From: Streptomyces sp. NBC_00576
GTDB lineage: Bacteria > Actinomycetota > Actinomycetes > Streptomycetales > Streptomycetaceae
DNA: 24,000 nucleotides
Assembly (NCBI RefSeq): GCF_036345175.1
Contig: NZ_CP107780.1
Coordinates: 4,958,871 to 4,982,870, forward strand
Direction: 5' to 3'
Each line of letters begins with the position of its first letter. Position 1 is the first letter of the stretch. Of the stretch, positions 669 to 10,952 are shown piece by piece. A program made the translations under genes and the position numbers. The notes under the pieces were generated by a model. It was not told the origin of the DNA. It was given only the letters and a program-made list of their open reading frames with translations, and did not search any database.

Positions 669-684
669 CGCCGAACCGCCGAAC
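653..684. repeat. Tandem 8-mer CGCCGAAC: 3 perfect copies plus 1 degenerate
   Basis: Read directly: perfect copies at 661-668, 669-676 and 677-684, preceded by degenerate gttcgaac at 653-660. Confidence 0.95.
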
Positions 685-746
685 CGATAACGACCGACAA
701 CGACCGACAACGACCGACAACGACCGACAACGACCGACAACGACCG
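681..746. repeat. Tandem 10-mer CGACCGACAA: 5 perfect copies plus partial copies at both ends
   Basis: Read directly: five perfect units at 691-740, partial cgaccg at 741-746, and a degenerate unit gaaccgataa at 681-690. Confidence 0.95.
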
Positions 747-773
747 TCCACCAGCCGCCCCGGCCGCCTCAAC

Positions 774-4115: not shown

Positions 4116-4769
4116 TCAACGCCTCAACGCCCCCAGCGTCTCCCTCGGACTCCACACCTCCCCACCCCGCCGACCCGTCAACGGCCAACAGGCAAACCCA
4201 ACAAGCACCGCAGTGAAATGCCCGAGATCAGTGAACGTACGAGACAAGACGAGCGGCACCCCGTACACCACAAGAACACCCCCCACATACGCATACCGCC
4301 AAGGCCGCGCCACCCGATACGCGAGCACGGCCACCACCCCCGCCAGCCCGTAACTCACCCCGAAATCCATCGTGTCCGCCGCCGACGCCGGCGCAGAACC
4401 GTCCCGGATCGCCCGCCACACCGCACCCTGACTGACCAACGTCGCCAACACATGCGCACTCACACACACCACAAGCCACCGCACGGTCCCCAACCACCGC
4501 TCGACCGACGCATGAAACACCGAATACAGAACGAGGTACGGAGTCCACCACCCGTCGATCCACATCGCACTGGAGATCAACACCCGCACCGGATGGTCCG
4601 ACAACTCATTGATGTTCGTCGACCGCTGCCGCAGGAACTCCTCCTGAAACTCCGCCGACATGTGATGTATGGCCACCGTCGTGAAGAACAGGACCAGCAG
4701 CCACACATAAGTGCCCGGAGCACTACGAACGTAAGCCCACACCCCGCGCGGACCCGCCGAAAATCGCAT
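4116..4769 (-). CDS. Polytopic membrane protein, rhomboid-like fold (divergent)
   Basis: 217 aa with about 6 hydrophobic segments. ASVERWLGTVRWLVVCVSAHVLATLVSQG resembles the GlpG segment [23 protein letters not shown]. It has a GxSxGxxG motif (FGVSYGLAGV) and a late-TM His (DLGHFTAVLVG), but no TM2 HxxxN motif. It lies upstream of, and on the same strand as, the secreted protein gene. Confidence 0.6.
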   Translation of the reverse strand: MRFSAGPRGVWAYVRSAPGTYVWLLVLFFTTVAIHHMSAEFQEEFLRQRSTNINELSDHPVRVLISSAMWIDGWWTPYLVLYSVFHASVERWLGTVRWLVVCVSAHVLATLVSQGAVWRAIRDGSAPASAADTMDFGVSYGLAGVVAVLAYRVARPWRYAYVGGVLVVYGVPLVLSRTFTDLGHFTAVLVGFACWPLTGRRGGEVWSPRETLGALRR

Positions 4770-4775
4770 GCCCCA

Positions 4776-4781
4776 AATTTA
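4776..4781 (-). promoter_or_regulatory. -10 box TAAATT for a leaderless transcript starting at ATG 4769
   Basis: The minus strand reads TTGGCG-16 nt-TAAATT-tggggc-ATG. The 6-nt gap between -10 and start codon is typical of leaderless actinobacterial mRNAs. Confidence 0.45.
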
Positions 4782-4791
4782 CGCACGCACA

Positions 4792-4797
4792 TACAGT
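4792..4797 (+). promoter_or_regulatory. -10 box TACAGT for a leaderless transcript starting at GTG 4804
   Basis: The plus strand reads TACAGT-cgccaa-GTG with a 6-nt gap. No Shine-Dalgarno precedes either candidate start. Confidence 0.45.
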
Positions 4798-4803
4798 CGC
4801 CAA

Positions 4804-5691
4804 GTGATCCGCATCCGCGTCCCCGACGAACTGGCCGCCACACAGCTCAAGTACAACGGGGAGGCAGGCCGCGCCTTCATCACCGCACTCCCCACCCGCA
4901 CCGCCGACTTCCTCGACCACTGGAACCTACGCATCGACGGCCAGGCAATGCACGGCGTAACAGCCCTGGTCCTCCCGGTCCTACGCGCCGACGACACCCC
5001 AGCCGCCCTCAAACTCCAACTCCCGGACGACGAGAGCAAAGACGAACCAACCGCCCTCCGCCACTGGAACGGCGACCACGCCGTACGCCTCCTGGACCAC
5101 GACCCCACCACCGGAACGATGCTCCTGGAACGCCTCGACCACACCCGAATGCTGTCCCACCACCCCGACGCCCACGAAGCCACCCTGATCATCGCCGACC
5201 TCCTGACCCACCTCACCGCCATACCGGCCCCACCCGGCATCCGCCTCCTCGGCGACATCGCAGAAGGAATGCTGAACGAAGCGCCACAGGCACTCCCCCA
5301 AATCCCGGACCCCGAAGCCCGCACCCTCCTCAAGGACTGCGCGGCAGCCCTACGCGAAGTGGCCCCGGAACCCGGCGACCGCCTCCTCCACTGGGACCTC
5401 CACGACGAAAACGTCCTCGCCGCCCACCGCGCCCCCTGGCTCGCCATCGACCCGAAACCCCTGGCCGGAGACCCCGCCTTCGACCTCTGGCCGGCCATCA
5501 ACAACCGCTTCGACGCCAACGACATCCTCTGGCGCTTCGACGCCCTGACAGACGCCCTGTCCCTGGACCGCGAACGGGCACGCGCGTGGACCCTCGCCCG
5601 GGTACTCCAGAACACCCTGTGGCACATCAAAGACGGCGACCCACCAGAGGAACCGGACCTGGAGATCGCACGCCGACTACGCCACCCCTGA
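4804..5691 (+). CDS. Aminoglycoside phosphotransferase, APH(6)/streptomycin-6-kinase/hydroxyurea-resistance kinase family
   Basis: Kinase catalytic-loop motif LLHWDLHDENVL followed by IDPKPLAGDPAFDL, as in the APH(6) family. The track start ATG 4768 overlaps the divergent gene's ATG within CATG. In-frame GTG 4804 with a leaderless -10 is preferred. Confidence 0.75.
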   Translation: MIRIRVPDELAATQLKYNGEAGRAFITALPTRTADFLDHWNLRIDGQAMHGVTALVLPVLRADDTPAALKLQLPDDESKDEPTALRHWNGDHAVRLLDHDPTTGTMLLERLDHTRMLSHHPDAHEATLIIADLLTHLTAIPAPPGIRLLGDIAEGMLNEAPQALPQIPDPEARTLLKDCAAALREVAPEPGDRLLHWDLHDENVLAAHRAPWLAIDPKPLAGDPAFDLWPAINNRFDANDILWRFDALTDALSLDRERARAWTLARVLQNTLWHIKDGDPPEEPDLEIARRLRHP

Positions 5692-5720
5692 CCCACGGCG
5701 ACGGCAACCGGAACCACTAC

Positions 5721-6221
5721 TCACACAACGCACTCCATACACACCAGCCGCTCCCGCCCATCCCACGACTCGGTGACGACGAACCCGAACCGCTCGTACA
5801 GAGCAATGGCCCCGACCCGCCACTCCCACACGGACAGCCGCACGCTGCTGACCCCACCTTCCGCAGCACCCGCAAGCGCGGCACGGAGCAGACCGGAAGC
5901 GATCCCCCGCCCCCGGAACTCCGGATCCGTCCACAACCTCTTGATCTCCGACCGCCCACCGACGGAAGCGGCCACCACCACACACCCCACGGCAGCGCCC
6001 CCGCTCAGGGCCACCAGCACGACATCGCCGACGAACGCGGCCCGCGGATCCGAGATCTCCGCCCGATACCGCCCCGGCAGCCCGTCCACGTCGGCAACGG
6101 CCTGGCCCTTCTCGGCCTCGGTCCGCAGGTGATAGGCGGCCAACAGCCCGGCCAGCCCGCTATCAGCGGAAGGGGACTGCTCCGGCCAGCGGACGACCAC
6201 AACCTCGCGCTGATCAGTCAT
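5721..6221 (-). CDS. GNAT-family N-acetyltransferase
   Basis: 166 aa with acetyl-CoA-binding motif A ...RLWTDPEFRGRGIASGLLRAAL... and a typical GNAT C-terminal beta-strand (YERFGF). TATGCT-cgcgcc-ATG suggests a leaderless start. Confidence 0.85.
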   Translation of the reverse strand: MTDQREVVVVRWPEQSPSADSGLAGLLAAYHLRTEAEKGQAVADVDGLPGRYRAEISDPRAAFVGDVVLVALSGGAAVGCVVVAASVGGRSEIKRLWTDPEFRGRGIASGLLRAALAGAAEGGVSSVRLSVWEWRVGAIALYERFGFVVTESWDGRERLVCMECVV

Positions 6222-6266: not shown

Positions 6267-6273
6267 ACTGTTG

Positions 6274-6347
6274 AGCCCCCTGTCGGATTCGAACCGACGA
6301 CCTGATCATTACAAGTGATCTGCTCGTTCCAGCTGAGCTAAGGAGGC
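6274..6347 (-). tRNA. tRNA-Thr (anticodon UGU), 74 nt, CCA not encoded
   Basis: Hand-folded cloverleaf. Acceptor GCCTCCT/AGGGGGC (one G-U pair), D stem GCTC/GAGC, anticodon stem GATCA/TGATC with loop CTTGTAA, variable loop AGGTC, T stem GTCGG/CCGAC with loop TTCGAAT, discriminator U. Confidence 0.9.
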
Positions 6348-6383
6348 ACCGCGCACCACAACGCCGTACGCGAAGGCGGCTCC

Positions 6384-6389
6384 ACTGTA
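6384..6389 (-). promoter_or_regulatory. Candidate -10 (TACAGT) for the tRNA-Thr promoter
   Basis: A TACAGT on the minus strand lies about 36 nt upstream of the mature tRNA 5' end. The -35 (TGGCCT) is weak. Confidence 0.3.
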
Positions 6390-6439
6390 CACAGAGCGCG
6401 ATCCCCCAGGCCACGGAGTTCGTGTTTGACCTGGGCGTC

Positions 6440-8150
6440 GAAAACCAAACGTAACCATCCGCGCACCCGTTCGTTGATCGCTCTGACGTGCGTTCCGAAG
6501 ATCGGATCGTCGGGGAGGGATTCATGGGGAAGCCGGGGGAGTCGGTGGAGAAGCCGAGGCTGGAAGCGGTGACAGGCGAGGAGGCCGAGCGCATCAAGCG
6601 CGAGGCCCTCGGTATCGGCGACCGCCGCAAGCACCACCAGCGCACGGCGACTCCGTTGAAGGCGCACGTCAAGGAGCCGGATACGCAGCACCGCCTGTAC
6701 CGCTTCCGCTTCTACCCGACCGCCGAGCAGGCGGAGCAGTTGGCGAAGACGTTCGGTGCCTGTCGGTGGGTCTACAACGAGGGGCTGGCGCTGCGGTCCG
6801 GGGCGTGGGAGCGGCATCGGGTGAATGTGGGGTTCGCGGAGTCGTGTCGGGCGTTGACGGGCTGGAAGCGGGCGGAGAAGACGGCATGGCTTGGGGAGGT
6901 GTCGTCGACGGTGCTGCAGCAGTCGTTGCGGCATCTCGATCAGGCGTTTGGGCGGTTCTTCAAGGGGTCGGGGAAGTATCCGCAGCGGAAGAAGAAGGGG
7001 CGTTCGCGGGATTCGGCGACGTATGTGCGGACCGGTTTCCGGTGGGTGGAGGATTTGGAGCGGCCGGGTACGGGGCTCATCACGCTGGCGAAGCAGTCGG
7101 TGCCGTTGGATGTCCGGTGGTCGCGGGCGCTGCCTGTGGGAACCGTTCCGGTGCGTTTGTCGGTGACGCGGGACCGGGCTGGGCGCTACTTCGTGTCGAC
7201 GCTCGTGGAGGAGCGGATCGCGCCTCTGCCTACCGCCTTTGTGCCGGGTTCGCTGGCGCCGATGGCGGTGGGGCTGGATCTGGGGTTGGCGTCGCTGGTC
7301 ACTCTGGACGACGGGACGAAGGTCGATCATCCGCGTCTGTTGAGGCGGTACGCGGAGAGGTTGGCGCGGTTGCAGCGGGAGCTGCACAAGAAGGTGAGGG
7401 GTTCGGCCAACCGGGACAAGGTGAGGCGGAAGATCGCGCGTCTTTACGCGCTCATCGGTGACGTTCGCAGGGACATGTTGGACCAGTTCACGACCCGCCT
7501 GGTGCGCGAGAACCAAGTGCTCGTGGTGGAGGATCTGGCCATTGCGAATCTGATGCGTCCGGCGCGTGGCAAGGGTCGTCGTCGGAAGGCGAAGTTGAAC
7601 GAGGCGATCATCGATGCCGCCTGGGGCGAGTTGTTGCGGCAGCTGCGGTACAAGTGCGAGTGGTACGGGCGGACGCTGGTGATCGTCGACCGGTTCTTCC
7701 CCTCCACGCGGCGCTGCTCCGCGTGTCATACCAAGGGTCCGAAGTTGGATGTCTGGGTCCGGGAGTGGACGTGTGCCGAGTGTGGGGTCGTCCATGACCG
7801 GGATGTGAATGCGGCTGTGAACCTTCGTGACGAGGGCCTGCGGTTGTATTGGCTGGTGGCGGCCGGGCTGCCGCCCACGAAGGGAGTACCGGCGCTGATC
7901 AGGGCGTCGGAGCTGGAGGATTGTCTGCTGGCCGCTTAGCGGCGGCTGGGTGGTACGGACCGACGGGCCGTCGGCCGGAATGCCTGTGGAGCGCGTGTAA
8001 GACCGTTCGGGCGCAGTTCATGAAGGCTGTGTGCGTCGGCGGTGCGTGATGAAGCAGGAAGCCTCACGGCAAGGTCAAAAGTGCGGTGCTCTGCCTACTC
8101 GTAAGTTTCCGTCTCGAAAATTCTCGCGAAGTTCACATCCCCCCAGGTAC
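6440..8150 (+). mobile_element. IS200/IS605-superfamily tnpB-only element (IS1341-like); boundaries approximate
   Basis: Contains only tnpB and no tnpA. Imperfect palindromes lie near both ends: CCGAAGATCGGATCGTCGG at 6495-6513 and CCGACGGgCCGTCGG at 7960-7974. Codon bias differs from both flanks. The right limit is inferred from where coding-like host sequence resumes, at about 8156. Confidence 0.35.
6524..7939 (+). CDS. tnpB: TnpB (OrfB) RNA-guided endonuclease/transposon-associated protein
   Basis: N-terminal YRFRFYPTAEQ...CRWVYN, RuvC-I GLDLG, RuvC-II VVEDL, zinc ribbon CSAC...CAEC, RuvC-III HDRDVNAAVNL. Start placed at ATG 6524, with GGAGG 5 nt upstream; the track start is GTG 6488. Confidence 0.9.
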   Translation: MGKPGESVEKPRLEAVTGEEAERIKREALGIGDRRKHHQRTATPLKAHVKEPDTQHRLYRFRFYPTAEQAEQLAKTFGACRWVYNEGLALRSGAWERHRVNVGFAESCRALTGWKRAEKTAWLGEVSSTVLQQSLRHLDQAFGRFFKGSGKYPQRKKKGRSRDSATYVRTGFRWVEDLERPGTGLITLAKQSVPLDVRWSRALPVGTVPVRLSVTRDRAGRYFVSTLVEERIAPLPTAFVPGSLAPMAVGLDLGLASLVTLDDGTKVDHPRLLRRYAERLARLQRELHKKVRGSANRDKVRRKIARLYALIGDVRRDMLDQFTTRLVRENQVLVVEDLAIANLMRPARGKGRRRKAKLNEAIIDAAWGELLRQLRYKCEWYGRTLVIVDRFFPSTRRCSACHTKGPKLDVWVREWTCAECGVVHDRDVNAAVNLRDEGLRLYWLVAAGLPPTKGVPALIRASELEDCLLAA

Positions 8151-8155
8151 TGACA

Positions 8156-8260
8156 GACGCCGAAACCCCGGGTACCGTCCTGAACCAGTCCGCGTACGTG
8201 GACTACACCACCTTCCACTACGGATCGTCCGGCACGTTCCTGCCGGTGAAGGGGGCCTAG
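8156..8260 (+). pseudogene. Orphan 3' fragment of a protein-coding gene (...DAETPGTVLNQSAYVDYTTFHYGSSGTFLPVKGA*)
   Basis: 34 codons ending at TAG 8258-8260, of which 31 have G/C at position 3 and about 50% have G/C at position 2, a typical coding signature. The frame is open only from 8105 and has no ATG, GTG or TTG start. The frame differs from msiK. Confidence 0.4.
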
Positions 8261-8265
8261 TACCC

Positions 8266-9402
<1,137 letters not shown>

Positions 9403-10220: not shown

Positions 10221-10952
10221 ATGACCGATCCGAACGCCACGTCGCGCCCCACTCAGGCCGTGGTCCTCGCCGGCGGCCAGGGCTCCCGGCTCCGCCCGTA
10301 CACCGACGACCGGCCCAAGCCGATGGTCGAGATCCCCGGCACGGGGACGCCGATCATCGGCCATCAGCTTGTCTGGCTCGCCGAGGAGGGTGTGACGGAT
10401 GTCGTGGTCAGCTGTGGCCATCTCGCCGAAGTCCTCCAGAAGTGGCTGGAGACGGCCGATCTGCCGCTGAACGTCACGACGGTCGTCGAGACCGAGCCCC
10501 TGGGCCGTGGTGGCGGCCTCAAGTACGCGGCCGCACACCTTCCCGCCCCGGATCAGCCCTGGTACGCCACCAACGGTGACATCTGGACCCGTTTCTCGCT
10601 GCGTGACATGGCCGACTTCCATGCCGAGCGGGACGCTGTGGCGACCCTCGCGCTGGCCCGTCCGCGGCTGCCGTGGGGCGCTGTCCAGACGGACGGCTTC
10701 GGTCACATCACGGACTTCATCGAGTCCCCTCCGTCGACCTTCGAGATCAACGCGGGCGTGTACGTCTTCTCCTCCGAGTTCGCCGCCCTGCTCCCGGAGC
10801 GCGGCGACCACGAACGCACCACGTTCCCCCACCTGGCCCGGGAACTCCGCCTGGCCGGCTTCCCGATCCCGCACGGTGCCTACTGGCGTGCCATCGACAC
10901 CGCGAAGGACCTGACGGAGGCCGCGAAGGAGCTGGCGGCGCTGGGCCGTTGA
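10221..10952 (+). CDS. Sugar-phosphate nucleotidyltransferase (NDP-sugar pyrophosphorylase family)
   Basis: N-terminal AVVLAGGQGSRLRPYTDDRPKPMV (the GxGxRLxPxT motif) and a 243-aa single NTP-transferase domain. Confidence 0.85.
   Translation: MTDPNATSRPTQAVVLAGGQGSRLRPYTDDRPKPMVEIPGTGTPIIGHQLVWLAEEGVTDVVVSCGHLAEVLQKWLETADLPLNVTTVVETEPLGRGGGLKYAAAHLPAPDQPWYATNGDIWTRFSLRDMADFHAERDAVATLALARPRLPWGAVQTDGFGHITDFIESPPSTFEINAGVYVFSSEFAALLPERGDHERTTFPHLARELRLAGFPIPHGAYWRAIDTAKDLTEAAKELAALGR

What the first reader, a model, noticed from the sequence alone, without database searches (positions are those of the whole stretch)
6440..8155. Solo tnpB with intact nuclease motifs and a coding 55-aa N-terminal extension, wedged between the tRNA-Thr promoter and a truncated host gene
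The 471-aa TnpB retains all three RuvC motifs (GLDLG, VVEDL, HDRDVNAAVNL) and the CxxC...CxxC zinc ribbon, so it is probably active. No tnpA (Y1 or serine recombinase) is present in the window. In TnpB systems generally, the omega/reRNA scaffold overlaps the 3' end of tnpB and runs to the right end of the element. That places it here at roughly 7800-8150, with the guide just beyond. Imperfect palindromes of similar flavour sit near both ends (6495-6513 and 7960-7974). A TTGAT at 6474-6478 matches the ISDra2 target-adjacent motif, but this may be coincidence. An unusual feature is about 55 charged residues (MGKPGESVEKPRLEAVTGEEAERIKREALGIGDRRKHHQR...) before the canonical YRFRFYPT start. These codons have clear GC3 coding bias. 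The element has codon-skew polarity opposite to the islet on the other side of the tRNA, so this tRNA locus has been hit by two independent mobile elements.
Basis: partly seen in the sequence, partly recalled or inferred. Interest (0 to 1): 0.6.

Follow-up and report, generated by a model that had tools for sequence, protein, structure and literature searches.

The report
Immobilised TnpB nuclease fixed beside msiK
This is a transposon-derived RNA-guided nuclease gene (tnpB) with its guide RNA that has lost its transposon ends, sits at the same chromosomal spot between a tRNA-Thr gene and the sugar-transport gene msiK in many Streptomyces species, and is still kept intact by selection, which is unusual for a supposedly selfish, mobile gene.

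Summary
The ORF is real: 6524-7939, 471 aa, a bona fide TnpB with an intact RuvC triad and zinc ribbon. The N-terminal extension is also real and conserved.

- The downstream gene (msiK, 8266-9402) is complete and has its own known 5'-UTR motif.
- The guide-RNA scaffold lies downstream of the stop codon (about 7955-8095), not inside the ORF. It is structured, with strong covariation. It is RAGATH-18/HgcC-like but below every Rfam threshold.
- TTGAT lies inside a conserved upstream block, not at a junction.
- The element is not a recent insertion. It is single-copy, and the same tRNA-Thr / tnpB / msiK arrangement occurs in all 80 best relatives (71-95% aa) and in about 6-9% of sampled genomes of the genus, alongside decayed remnants and empty sites.
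- Mobile, multi-copy relatives (about 50% identity) have classic IS200/IS605 hairpin ends. This lineage lacks both hairpins and has gained N- and C-terminal extensions and an extra RNA hairpin.

dN/dS is 0.19 for the core. The tnpB tree is no more discordant with neighbouring host genes than they are with each other.

Best reading: an immobilised, vertically inherited, nuclease-competent TnpB-guide RNA module, either selfishly retained or host-exapted. Guide, TAM and activity remain untested. An earlier first-stage note in this scan flagged an ortholog in another genome.

The parts
6273..6347 (-). tRNA-Thr(TGT), the left syntenic anchor
   Evidence: ARAGORN and Rfam tRNA at 61.9 bits. The same tRNA flanks 79 of the 80 orthologous loci (L125 is cut at the contig end) and the empty sites.
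6348..6449 (.). tRNA-proximal segment specific to the occupied allele. It includes a left copy of GTCGAAAA at 6437-6444.
   Evidence: It is conserved among occupied loci but largely different from the 30-75 nt found in empty alleles. TCGAAAA recurs at 8114-8120.
6450..6523 (+). Conserved upstream block (CGTAACC...). It contains TTGATC at 6474-6479 and the Shine-Dalgarno GGGGAGGG at 6512-6519. It is probably the tnpB promoter and 5' UTR (inferred).
   Evidence: Conserved in all occupied loci. The Shine-Dalgarno before the start codon is conserved. The strict sigma-70 scan found no promoter. It has no homology to the left ends of mobile relatives.
6524..6688 (+). N-terminal extension of TnpB (residues 1-55), with a conserved EAxRIKREAL helix at residues 19-28
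   Evidence: Start codon conserved in 72/78 orthologs and dN/dS 0.42. In the AF2 model residues 19-28 form a helix and residues 1-11 and 37-46 are disordered. No Pfam or NCBIfam match. Absent from mobile relatives.
6689..7939 (+). TnpB core plus a roughly 37-aa C-terminal tail and the stop codon. RuvC residues: D252 (7277-7279), E336 (7529-7531), D427 (7802-7804).
   Evidence: Pfam. NCBIfam guided_TnpB 302.9 bits against a cut-off of 100. DED triad and 4 Cys invariant in 78/78. dN/dS 0.19 for the core and 0.28 for the tail. AF2 model matches ISDra2 TnpB 8H1J at TM 0.84.
7957..7976 (+). Lineage-specific, near-invariant RNA hairpin (GG-CCGACG / CGTCGG-CC) just after the stop codon
   Evidence: Helix 1: 99.7% of cells paired and 2 pairs with compensatory changes. 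Not present in mobile relatives.
7983..8060 (+). Core of the guide-RNA (omegaRNA/reRNA) scaffold, RAGATH-18-like / HgcC-like
   Evidence: Rfam RAGATH-18 at 26.7 bits, below the gathering score of 44.9. Covariation: 14 pairs change on both sides against 7.1 in shuffles (0/500), and 96.8% of cells are paired against 31-48% when slid. Model R1 finds the same RNA after tnpB in mobile relatives.
8061..8095 (+). 3' part of the scaffold: a short variable hairpin, then the conserved motif GGTCAAAAGTG-nnnn-GCTCTGCC (8073-8095)
   Evidence: Present in nearly all orthologs and tandemly repeated 2-3 times in some. Unique in this genome. It occupies the place of the right-end hairpin plus GGATGTCAA of mobile relatives; that homology is inferred.
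8096..8137 (+). Candidate guide region and right junction: a 16-nt diverged duplicate (8096-8111), TCGAAAA (8114-8120), then TTCTCGCGAAGTTCACA (8121-8137)
   Evidence: Homology with empty sites (GTCGAAAATTTCCGCGAAGTTCACA) resumes at about 8112-8114. The guide start is not determined.
8203..8261 (+). msiK 5'-UTR RNA motif (RF01747). Not part of the element.
   Evidence: 56.5 bits against a gathering score of 33.
8266..9402 (+). msiK (ABC sugar-import ATPase), intact, the right syntenic anchor
   Evidence: Pfam ABC_tran, OB_MalK and TOBE_2. 85-98% nucleotide identity in all loci.

Best explanation
What it is (shown): a TnpB RNA-guided-nuclease gene with its adjacent guide-RNA scaffold. It descends from the IS200/IS605 (Y1-type) lineage and no longer has transposon ends or a transposase. 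It sits as a single copy at one fixed site, between tRNA-Thr(TGT) and the msiK promoter region. A minority of Streptomyces species share it at that site, and there it evolves under purifying selection like a resident gene. Compared with its mobile relatives, this lineage has gained a roughly 55-aa N-terminal extension, a roughly 30-aa C-terminal tail and an extra RNA hairpin, and it has lost the left- and right-end hairpins.

How it most likely works (inferred): transcription from the conserved upstream block yields the tnpB mRNA. Its 3' UTR (about 7955-8095) folds into the scaffold, and its 3' end continues into the adjacent msiK-upstream DNA, which serves as the guide. The TnpB-RNA complex cuts DNA that joins a target-adjacent motif to that guide match, meaning an allele lacking the insert. 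Such an allele could arise by deletion in a multigenomic hypha or arrive by conjugation. Recombination with an occupied copy then restores the insert. The module would therefore persist by RNA-guided retention or homing without transposition.
For: TnpB identity and nuclease competence:
- Pfam and NCBIfam matches, the PDB profile and the fold match.
- DED triad and zinc cysteines invariant in 78/78 orthologs.

IS200/IS605 lineage, not IS607:
- IS200_TnpB model 302 bits against 174 for IS607_TnpB.
- ISDra2 TnpB 309 bits against 191 for the IS607 ISFba1 protein.
- The nearest relatives (47-55% identity) are multi-copy, roughly 1.4-kb solo-tnpB elements with subterminal hairpins at both ends and a right end finishing in GTCAA.
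- Paralogs linked to a serine recombinase are only 31-32% identical.

Immobilised:
- Single-copy at the DNA and motif level.
- No homology to the relatives' left ends, and no right-end hairpin.

Fixed locus:
- All 80 best relatives have msiK downstream, and 79 also show the tRNA-Thr (L125 is cut at the contig end).
- In 150 sampled genomes of the genus there are 8-9 full-length copies, 4-5 remnants and the rest are empty.
- In the family-wide sample, copies bearing the N-terminal extension occur only in the window's GTDB genus.

Selection and inheritance:
- dN/dS is 0.19 (core), 0.42 (N-terminal extension) and 0.28 (C-terminal tail), at a median dS of about 0.8.
- Shared bipartitions out of 69: tnpB-msiK 24, tnpB-downstream gene 26, msiK-downstream gene 21.

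Structured RNA.

No second-site target for any candidate guide in the genome, as expected if the only target is the alternative allele.

The retention mechanism itself is established for IS200/IS605 TnpB (Meers et al., PMC10055086).
Against: - No expression data.
- The guide start and the TAM are not determined.
- In several orthologs the bases just 5' of the flank match are the same in occupied and empty alleles (GCC, or even GTCGAAAA). A short TAM there would also allow self-targeting.
- In the window's own clade, a 16-nt diverged duplicate (8096-8111) follows the scaffold. If the guide starts there, it no longer matches empty alleles well.
- A homing element would be expected to show more phylogenetic discordance than host genes do. 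None was seen.
- Without excision by a transposase, the benefit of a retention nuclease is unclear, so long-term purifying selection could instead reflect a benefit to the host.
- The 80 orthologs analysed are the best-scoring hits and are therefore biased towards intact copies.
Confidence: 0.5

Rival explanations
1. Host-exapted, nuclease-active TnpB. The module has been domesticated and provides a cellular function at or near its own locus, for example RNA-guided binding or cutting in the shared tRNA-Thr/msiK control region. Alternatively it does another job that needs the RuvC site. The new N- and C-terminal extensions and the extra RNA hairpin would be adaptations to that role.
For: - Fixed single locus, loss of transposon ends, and purifying selection lasting over a dS of about 0.8.
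- Tree discordance no greater than that of host genes.
- The lineage-specific extensions are themselves under constraint.
- It sits next to an ABC-transporter ATPase gene, as oppF-associated TldRs do (PMC13622181).
- The guide is templated by a sequence that is highly conserved across the genus (GTCGAAAATTTCCGCGAAGTTCACA).
Against: - It is present in only about 6-9% of sampled genomes of the genus, with frequent decay and loss. A useful host gene would be expected to be more widespread.
- Known exapted TnpBs (TldRs) have lost RuvC activity, whereas the triad here is invariant.
- No distal target for the candidate guides.
- The sequence right after the scaffold is not conserved between clades.
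Confidence: 0.27
2. Ordinary non-autonomous IS200/IS605 element (essentially the first reader's picture). On this view it is a solo tnpB transposon that inserted near the tRNA and can still be moved in trans by a Y1 TnpA encoded elsewhere in the genome.
For: - About 75% of tnpB genes lack a nearby tnpA (PMC10055086).
- This genome encodes four intact Y1 transposases and a fifth that is split.
- TCGAAAA flanks the insert on both sides in the window's clade. This resembles the TCATCGAA-type left junctions of some mobile relatives.
Against: - Single-copy in this genome.
- Found at the same site in all 80 best relatives from different species.
- No left or right subterminal hairpins, whereas every mobile relative examined has them.
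- A clean identity gap (68% or more against 56% or less) separates it from the mobile family.
Confidence: 0.05
3. Functionless relic. On this view it is a dead transposon remnant that has simply not yet decayed in the lineages where we still see it.
For: Remnants with internal deletions or truncations exist (L025, L031, L032, L039). One ortholog has an in-frame TAG (G451). Loss is frequent.
Against: At a median dS of about 0.8, a neutral 1.4-kb ORF would not stay open in dozens of species. dN/dS is 0.19, the catalytic and zinc residues are invariant in 78/78, and the start codon is conserved. The RNA keeps its pairing through compensatory changes.
Confidence: 0.08

Closest known systems
ISDra2 TnpB / IS200-IS605 TnpB-omegaRNA systems (PDB 8H1J, 8EXA)
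   Same: - Same protein family and fold (309-bit profile match, TM 0.84).
- Intact RuvC and zinc ribbon.
- A guide-RNA scaffold encoded at the 3' side, with the guide taken from the flanking DNA.
- The mobile relatives at about 50% identity have typical IS200/IS605 hairpin ends.
   Different: - No left or right hairpins, no tnpA, and single-copy at a fixed locus shared across species.
- The scaffold lies wholly downstream of the stop codon.
- Extra N-terminal (about 55 aa) and C-terminal (about 30 aa) segments, and an extra RNA hairpin.
- The TAM is unknown; TTGAT is not at a junction here.
IS607 TnpB with RAGATH-18-derived reRNA (ISFba1; Ren et al. 2024, PMC11061315; PDB 8IAZ)
   Same: The RNA lies downstream of the ORF rather than overlapping it. 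The core shares the RAGATH-18 outer stem and the kink-turn-like loop sequences CCUGUGGAG...GAUGAAGCAGGAA.
   Different: - The Rfam score is below the gathering threshold (26.7 against 44.9).
- The protein is closer to IS200/IS605 TnpB (302 against 174 bits).
- No serine recombinase is present.
- The relatives have Y1-type hairpin ends.
- The paper reports that RAGATH-18 co-occurs only with IS607 TnpB, so this RNA is at best a distant cousin of that family.
HgcC (RF00062) and sotRNAs (RF02656) of IS1341-type tnpB (Gomes-Filho et al. 2015, PMC4615843)
   Same: The mobile relatives' RNAs give sub-threshold HgcC and sot0042 hits. These hits include the right-end hairpin with a UUNA-type loop and the GGAGGUCA terminus.
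   Different: The Streptomyces fixed-locus RNA has lost that right-end hairpin and gives no hit to either family.
TldR (TnpB-like nuclease-dead repressors), for example the oppF-associated TldR (PMC13622181)
   Same: A TnpB derivative that is no longer in a transposon. It is kept at a host locus next to an ABC-transporter ATPase gene, together with its guide RNA.
   Different: TldRs have an eroded RuvC site and guides that match host promoters elsewhere. Here the RuvC triad is invariant, and no distal target was found.
Homing endonuclease genes (the cycle of invasion, fixation, decay and loss)
   Same: Presence/absence at a single conserved site, with intact copies, decayed remnants and clean empty sites interleaved among close relatives.
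   Different: Targeting would be RNA-guided. The tnpB tree shows no more discordance than host genes do. Cleavage of the empty allele has not been tested.

Membership tests
TnpB (RNA-guided endonuclease; NF040570, PF01385 + PF07282) | Profile match above the curated cut-off | tested here: met
   NF040570 scores 302.9 bits against a cut-off of 100. PF01385, PF07282 and PF12323 are all above their cut-offs.
TnpB (RNA-guided endonuclease; NF040570, PF01385 + PF07282) | RuvC D-E-D triad and CxxC...CxxC zinc ribbon | tested here: met
   D252, E336, D427, C398, C401, C417 and C420 are present in the window and invariant in 78/78 orthologs.
TnpB (RNA-guided endonuclease; NF040570, PF01385 + PF07282) | TnpB fold | tested here: met
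   AF2 model with pLDDT 85.8. Foldseek match to 8H1J at TM 0.84 and E 1.7e-27.
TnpB (RNA-guided endonuclease; NF040570, PF01385 + PF07282) | Adjacent structured guide-RNA scaffold | tested here: met
   Covariation-supported structure at 7957-8060. The same RNA follows tnpB in the mobile relatives.
TnpB (RNA-guided endonuclease; NF040570, PF01385 + PF07282) | RNA-guided, TAM-dependent DNA cleavage | not testable with these tools
   Needs biochemistry or an interference assay.
IS200/IS605 transposable element | Subterminal imperfect-palindrome hairpins at the left and right ends | tested here: not met
   The relatives have them. The window shows no similarity to the relatives' left ends, and a different motif stands in place of the right-end hairpin.
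IS200/IS605 transposable element | Y1 TnpA in cis, or multiple mobilisable copies | tested here: not met
   No Y1_Tnp in the window. Four intact Y1 genes and a fifth split one lie elsewhere in the genome. The element is single-copy.
IS200/IS605 transposable element | TnpB protein of the IS200/IS605 type | tested here: inconclusive
   NF038281 scores 301.9 bits. That is the best specific model but falls below its strict cut-off of 425. The protein is closest to ISDra2 among solved structures.
IS607 element | Serine-recombinase TnpA upstream of tnpB | tested here: not met
   No Resolvase domain in the window. Only about 175 bp separate the tRNA from the start codon.
IS607 element | IS607-type TnpB | tested here: not met
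   NF038280 scores 173.7 bits against a cut-off of 350, lower than the IS200 model. The IS607-linked paralogs in this genome are 31-32% identical.
RAGATH-18 RNA (RF03064) | Score at or above Rfam's gathering threshold | tested here: not met
   26.7 bits against 44.9. Not detected in divergent orthologs or in the mobile relatives.
RAGATH-18 RNA (RF03064) | Conserved outer stem and internal-loop sequences | tested here: met
   CCUGUGGAG...GAUGAAGCAGGAA aligns to the model consensus. The same helices are supported by covariation.
TldR (nuclease-dead exapted TnpB) | Inactivated RuvC site | tested here: not met
   The triad is invariant in 78/78 orthologs.
TldR (nuclease-dead exapted TnpB) | Guide complementary to a host promoter elsewhere | tested here: not met
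   Four candidate guides have no match with fewer than 3 mismatches elsewhere in the 11-Mb genome. The guide start is uncertain.
Homing-endonuclease-like element | Patchy presence/absence at one conserved site, with decayed remnants | tested here: met
Homing-endonuclease-like element | Element phylogeny more discordant than that of flanking host genes | tested here: not met
   Shared bipartitions are 24 and 26 (tnpB against each host gene) and 21 (host gene against host gene), out of 69.

The most novel reading that the evidence does not exclude
A nuclease-active TnpB that the host has exapted: a fixed-locus, RNA-guided enzyme with new N- and C-terminal modules and a remodelled guide RNA. It would act on the tRNA-Thr/msiK control region or on another cellular substrate. 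That would make it the first catalytically intact counterpart of the nuclease-dead TldR regulators.
Probability: 0.22. Interest if true: 0.85.

Novelty: new variant of a known kind. Interest (0 to 1): 0.62.

Why it matters
TnpB is understood as a selfish accessory of IS200/IS605 and IS607 transposons. The only described exaptations in bacteria (TldRs) have lost nuclease activity. Here a TnpB-guide RNA pair has lost every hallmark of mobility, yet it keeps an invariant catalytic centre and a covarying RNA across dozens of species at a single chromosomal address.

If it persists by RNA-guided retention or homing alone, it shows that TnpB can sustain an element without any transposase. If instead it serves the host, it is a new kind of domesticated RNA-guided nuclease.

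Either way it offers a natural, compact, high-GC-adapted TnpB with an RNA scaffold fully separable from the ORF. It also offers a tractable system (occupied, remnant and empty alleles in close relatives) for testing how such modules are maintained.

Tried and rejected
1. IS607 assignment. The RAGATH-18 hit and Ren et al. 2024 suggested it. I rejected it because the protein models, the PDB profile, the paralog linkage and the relatives' end structures all point to IS200/IS605.
2. Defining the ends from other copies in the genome. This is impossible because the element and its terminal motif are unique.
3. An apparent resemblance between the start-codon region and the relatives' left-end hairpin. 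Local alignment scores equal the shuffled null, so it was chance.
4. A conserved guide with a distal target. No target was found for four candidate guides.
5. The tRNA gene as part of the cassette. tRNA alleles do not segregate with occupancy.
6. Single-sequence RNA folding is uninformative at this GC content (z = -0.01).
7. The strict promoter/terminator scan found nothing, so the promoter role of 6450-6523 is inference only.
8. Rfam did not detect RAGATH-18 in divergent orthologs.
9. Public RNA-seq look-up.
10. AU tests of specific tnpB/msiK conflicts. The script stopped on a missing row and I did not repeat it. The bipartition comparison from the same call is what I use.
11. Origin of the N-terminal extension from upstream sequence of mobile relatives. 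Only weak similarity over residues 37-55 in one relative, so this is not established.
12. Candidate tnpA ORFs upstream of the mobile relatives' tnpB genes. No transposase domain was found.
Full report
**Observation**

The window holds an ORF at 6524-7939 (+), 471 aa counted from an ATG preceded by GGGGAGGG. It has the three Pfam domains of TnpB and passes NCBI's general TnpB model (302.9 bits, cut-off 100). An AlphaFold2 model (pLDDT 85.8) superposes on ISDra2 TnpB (8H1J, TM 0.84).

tRNA-Thr(TGT) lies at 6273-6347 on the minus strand. No Y1 or serine transposase lies in the window.

The downstream gene is not truncated. msiK starts at 8266, encodes 378 aa with all expected domains, and is preceded by the curated msiK 5'-UTR motif at 8203-8261 (56.5 bits). 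The long GTG-initiated ORF starting at 8086 is an artefact of high GC content.

**The same arrangement in many species**

The element is single-copy in its 10.97-Mb genome. The ten tnpB paralogs there are at most 51% identical.

A scan of one genome per prokaryote species found 250 relatives. The best 80 (71-95% aa identity) are all Streptomyces and all have msiK downstream. 79 of them also show tRNA-Thr(TGT) upstream; the last, L125, is cut at the contig end.

In a random sample of 150 genomes of the genus:
- 8-9 carry a full-length copy at this site.
- 4-5 carry remnants. L031 has an internal deletion, L025 is truncated, L032 is partial, and L039 retains only the left segment.
- The rest have an empty site, with the tRNA followed by 30-75 bp and then GTCGAAAATTTCCGCGAAGTTCACA.

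That sample includes one genome flagged as unpublished (G130), which contributes only to the tally.

In a family-wide sample of 200 genomes from 19 GTDB genera, copies at 68% identity or more that carry the N-terminal extension occur only in the window's GTDB genus. Everything else is 56% identical or less, usually starts at about residue 55, and is often multi-copy.

**Selection**

Across 78 orthologs:
- The RuvC triad and the four zinc cysteines are invariant.
- Nei-Gojobori dN/dS is 0.19 for the core, 0.42 for residues 1-55 and 0.28 for the C-terminal tail, at a median dS of about 0.8.
- The column aligned with M1 is M in 62 and V (GTG) in 10 of the 78.
- Where the first ATG lies at that position, a Shine-Dalgarno sequence precedes it, and the frame stays open although the extension varies between 43 and 58 codons.

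So the extension is coding and conserved. AF2 predicts one short helix (residues 19-28, the conserved EAxRIKREA block) between disordered linkers. No family matches it.

It is met for the mobile relatives, so the extension is specific to this lineage.

**The RNA**

A weak RAGATH-18 hit at 7983-8060 (26.7 bits, below the gathering score of 44.9) matched the consensus outer stem and loop sequences. That led me to Ren et al. 2024 (PMC11061315), where RAGATH-18-derived RNAs guide IS607 TnpBs and lie wholly downstream of the ORF.

An alignment of 78 orthologs gives a consensus fold made of a lineage-specific hairpin (7957-7976) and a three-helix RAGATH-18-like domain. On that fold:
- 96.8% of cells are paired, against 31-48% when the partners are slid.
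- 14 pairs change on both sides, against 7.1 +/- 1.3 in shuffles (0 of 500 shuffles reach the observed value).

Downstream of it, every ortholog has a short variable hairpin and then GGTCAAAAGTG-nnnn-GCTCTGCC (8073-8095). In some species this motif is tandemly repeated (35-nt period in L063).

So a structured RNA exists, but at about 7955-8095 rather than at 7800-7939.

**Which family**

A covariance model of the RNA (R1) finds:
- the 51%-identical paralog in the same genome;
- multi-copy hits in other actinomycete genomes, with 7-8 copies each in G228, G152 and G293. One single hit is in an unpublished genome, G164, which I do not use further.

Copies within one genome share a discrete unit of about 1.41 kb, made of about 140 nt, a tnpB of about 380 aa, and about 125 nt. 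Their ends are classic IS200/IS605:
- TCATC at the left junction, followed by a GC-rich hairpin.
- A similar hairpin at the right end, followed by GGATGTCAA and then the flank.

Their RNAs give sub-threshold hits to HgcC and sot0042. These are the RNA families described at the 3' end of IS1341-type tnpB genes (PMC4615843).

The protein models agree:
- IS200_TnpB 302 bits against IS607_TnpB 174 bits.
- ISDra2 TnpB 309 bits against the IS607 protein 8IAZ at 191 bits.
- In this genome, the paralogs next to serine recombinases are the most distant (31-32%), while the Y1-linked and hairpin-ended ones are closer (42-51%).

The element therefore descends from the IS200/IS605 lineage, and I rejected the IS607 idea. 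The RAGATH-18-like core seems to be shared more widely among TnpB guide RNAs than the Rfam family boundaries suggest.

**Immobilisation**

The Streptomyces fixed-locus lineage has neither end hairpin. Its left region has no detectable similarity to the relatives' left ends, and the GGTCAAAAG...GCTCTGCC motif stands where the right hairpin would be. Relative to the mobile family it has also gained the N-terminal extension, a C-terminal tail of about 30 aa, and the post-stop hairpin.

Comparing closely related occupied and empty genomes shows:
- a sharp right boundary, GCTCTGCC | CCGT(T)CGAAAATTTCC;
- a left side in which the whole interval up to the tRNA differs.

In the window's clade, TCGAAAA occurs at both junctions (6438-6444 and 8114-8120), so the insert is about 6445-8113, give or take 7 nt. 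The tRNA gene itself does not segregate with occupancy.

**Inheritance**

On an msiK tree, occupied, remnant and empty genomes are interleaved, needing at least 8-11 changes of state.

The tnpB and msiK trees agree only moderately (Spearman 0.48 on patristic distances). A third marker, the gene at 10221-10930, shows that this is background noise or recombination. Shared bipartitions out of 69 are tnpB-msiK 24, tnpB-third gene 26, and msiK-third gene 21.

So tnpB behaves like a resident gene that is often lost, not like an element that moves more than its neighbours.

**Mechanism**

*Shown:* a nuclease-competent TnpB and a covarying scaffold RNA, both under constraint, at a fixed site and without transposon ends.

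*Inferred:* the RNA's 3' end runs into the msiK-upstream DNA and supplies the guide. No candidate guide has another target in the genome, so the only plausible target is the alternative, insert-less allele. This matches the donor-joint cleavage and recombinational restoration shown for IS200/IS605 TnpB (PMC10055086). Streptomyces hyphae hold many chromosomes and exchange DNA by conjugation (general knowledge), which would supply both targets and repair templates.

*Weak points:*
- The guide start is unresolved. It could follow GGTCAA, GCTCTGCC, or the right-hand TCGAAAA.
- The TAM is unknown.
- Self-targeting cannot be excluded.
- In the window's own clade, a 16-nt diverged duplicate follows the scaffold.
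- Without a transposase to excise the element, it is unclear why a retention nuclease would stay under selection.

The main rival is therefore host exaptation of a still-active nuclease. An ordinary mobilisable IS and a functionless relic are both poorly supported.

**Novelty**

I found no paper linking TnpB to msiK or describing a fixed-locus, nuclease-intact TnpB lineage. These searches cover only the held library. The scan itself has one earlier, unverified first-stage note of an ortholog in another genome.

I file it as a new variant of a known kind: a TnpB-guide RNA system, but immobilised, remodelled and vertically maintained.

Noticed in passing
window 6273-6347 and the orthologous tRNAs in L017-L125: The anticodon stem of this tRNA-Thr(UGU) is extremely variable between species. 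There are dozens of different 5-bp stems, mostly kept paired by compensatory changes, while the rest of the tRNA is conserved.
   Followed up: partly
window 8096-8111: A 16-nt diverged duplicate (TACTCGTAAGTTTCCG) of the adjacent msiK-upstream box (TCTCGAAAATTCTCG) sits between the RNA scaffold and the flank. It is present in the window's close relatives (L047-L050) but not in L046.
   Followed up: partly
L063 4501-4594; also L052, L053, L056, L064 and others: The right-end motif together with about 12 nt of following sequence is tandemly duplicated 2-3 times (35-nt period, 89% matches in L063). The cause is unknown.
   Followed up: partly
window 4768-6221: An APH(6)-like kinase (4768-5691, +) and a GNAT acetyltransferase (5721-6221, -) lie on the 3' side of the tRNA. 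In the fetched loci the GNAT matched only one empty-site relative (L029, 88%) and none of the 80 orthologous loci, so this side of the tRNA is variable. No att repeat or integrase was seen within the window.
   Followed up: partly
window 673-762: A tandem repeat of the 10-nt unit ACCGACAACG, about 8 copies.
   Followed up: no
L024 (about 800 bp) and L072 (about 1.6 kb), between the RNA and msiK: Two orthologous loci carry extra DNA inserted between the tnpB RNA region and the msiK upstream region.
   Followed up: no
own genome, loci L006-L015: Ten further tnpB paralogs: five next to Y1 transposases (one of those transposases is frameshifted), two next to serine recombinases (IS607-type), and the others solo. 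One paralog has an in-frame TAG.
   Followed up: partly
left flanks of occupied loci (window 6410-6422) and right flank (8121-8137): All occupied loci carry a CCACGAAGTTC-like box 12-35 nt left of the conserved upstream block. It resembles CCGCGAAGTTCACA of the msiK-upstream region. The significance is unexplained.
   Followed up: partly
L166 (G451:C9:76451-77758): An ortholog at 81% identity has an in-frame TAG, so it is possibly a recent pseudogene.
   Followed up: no
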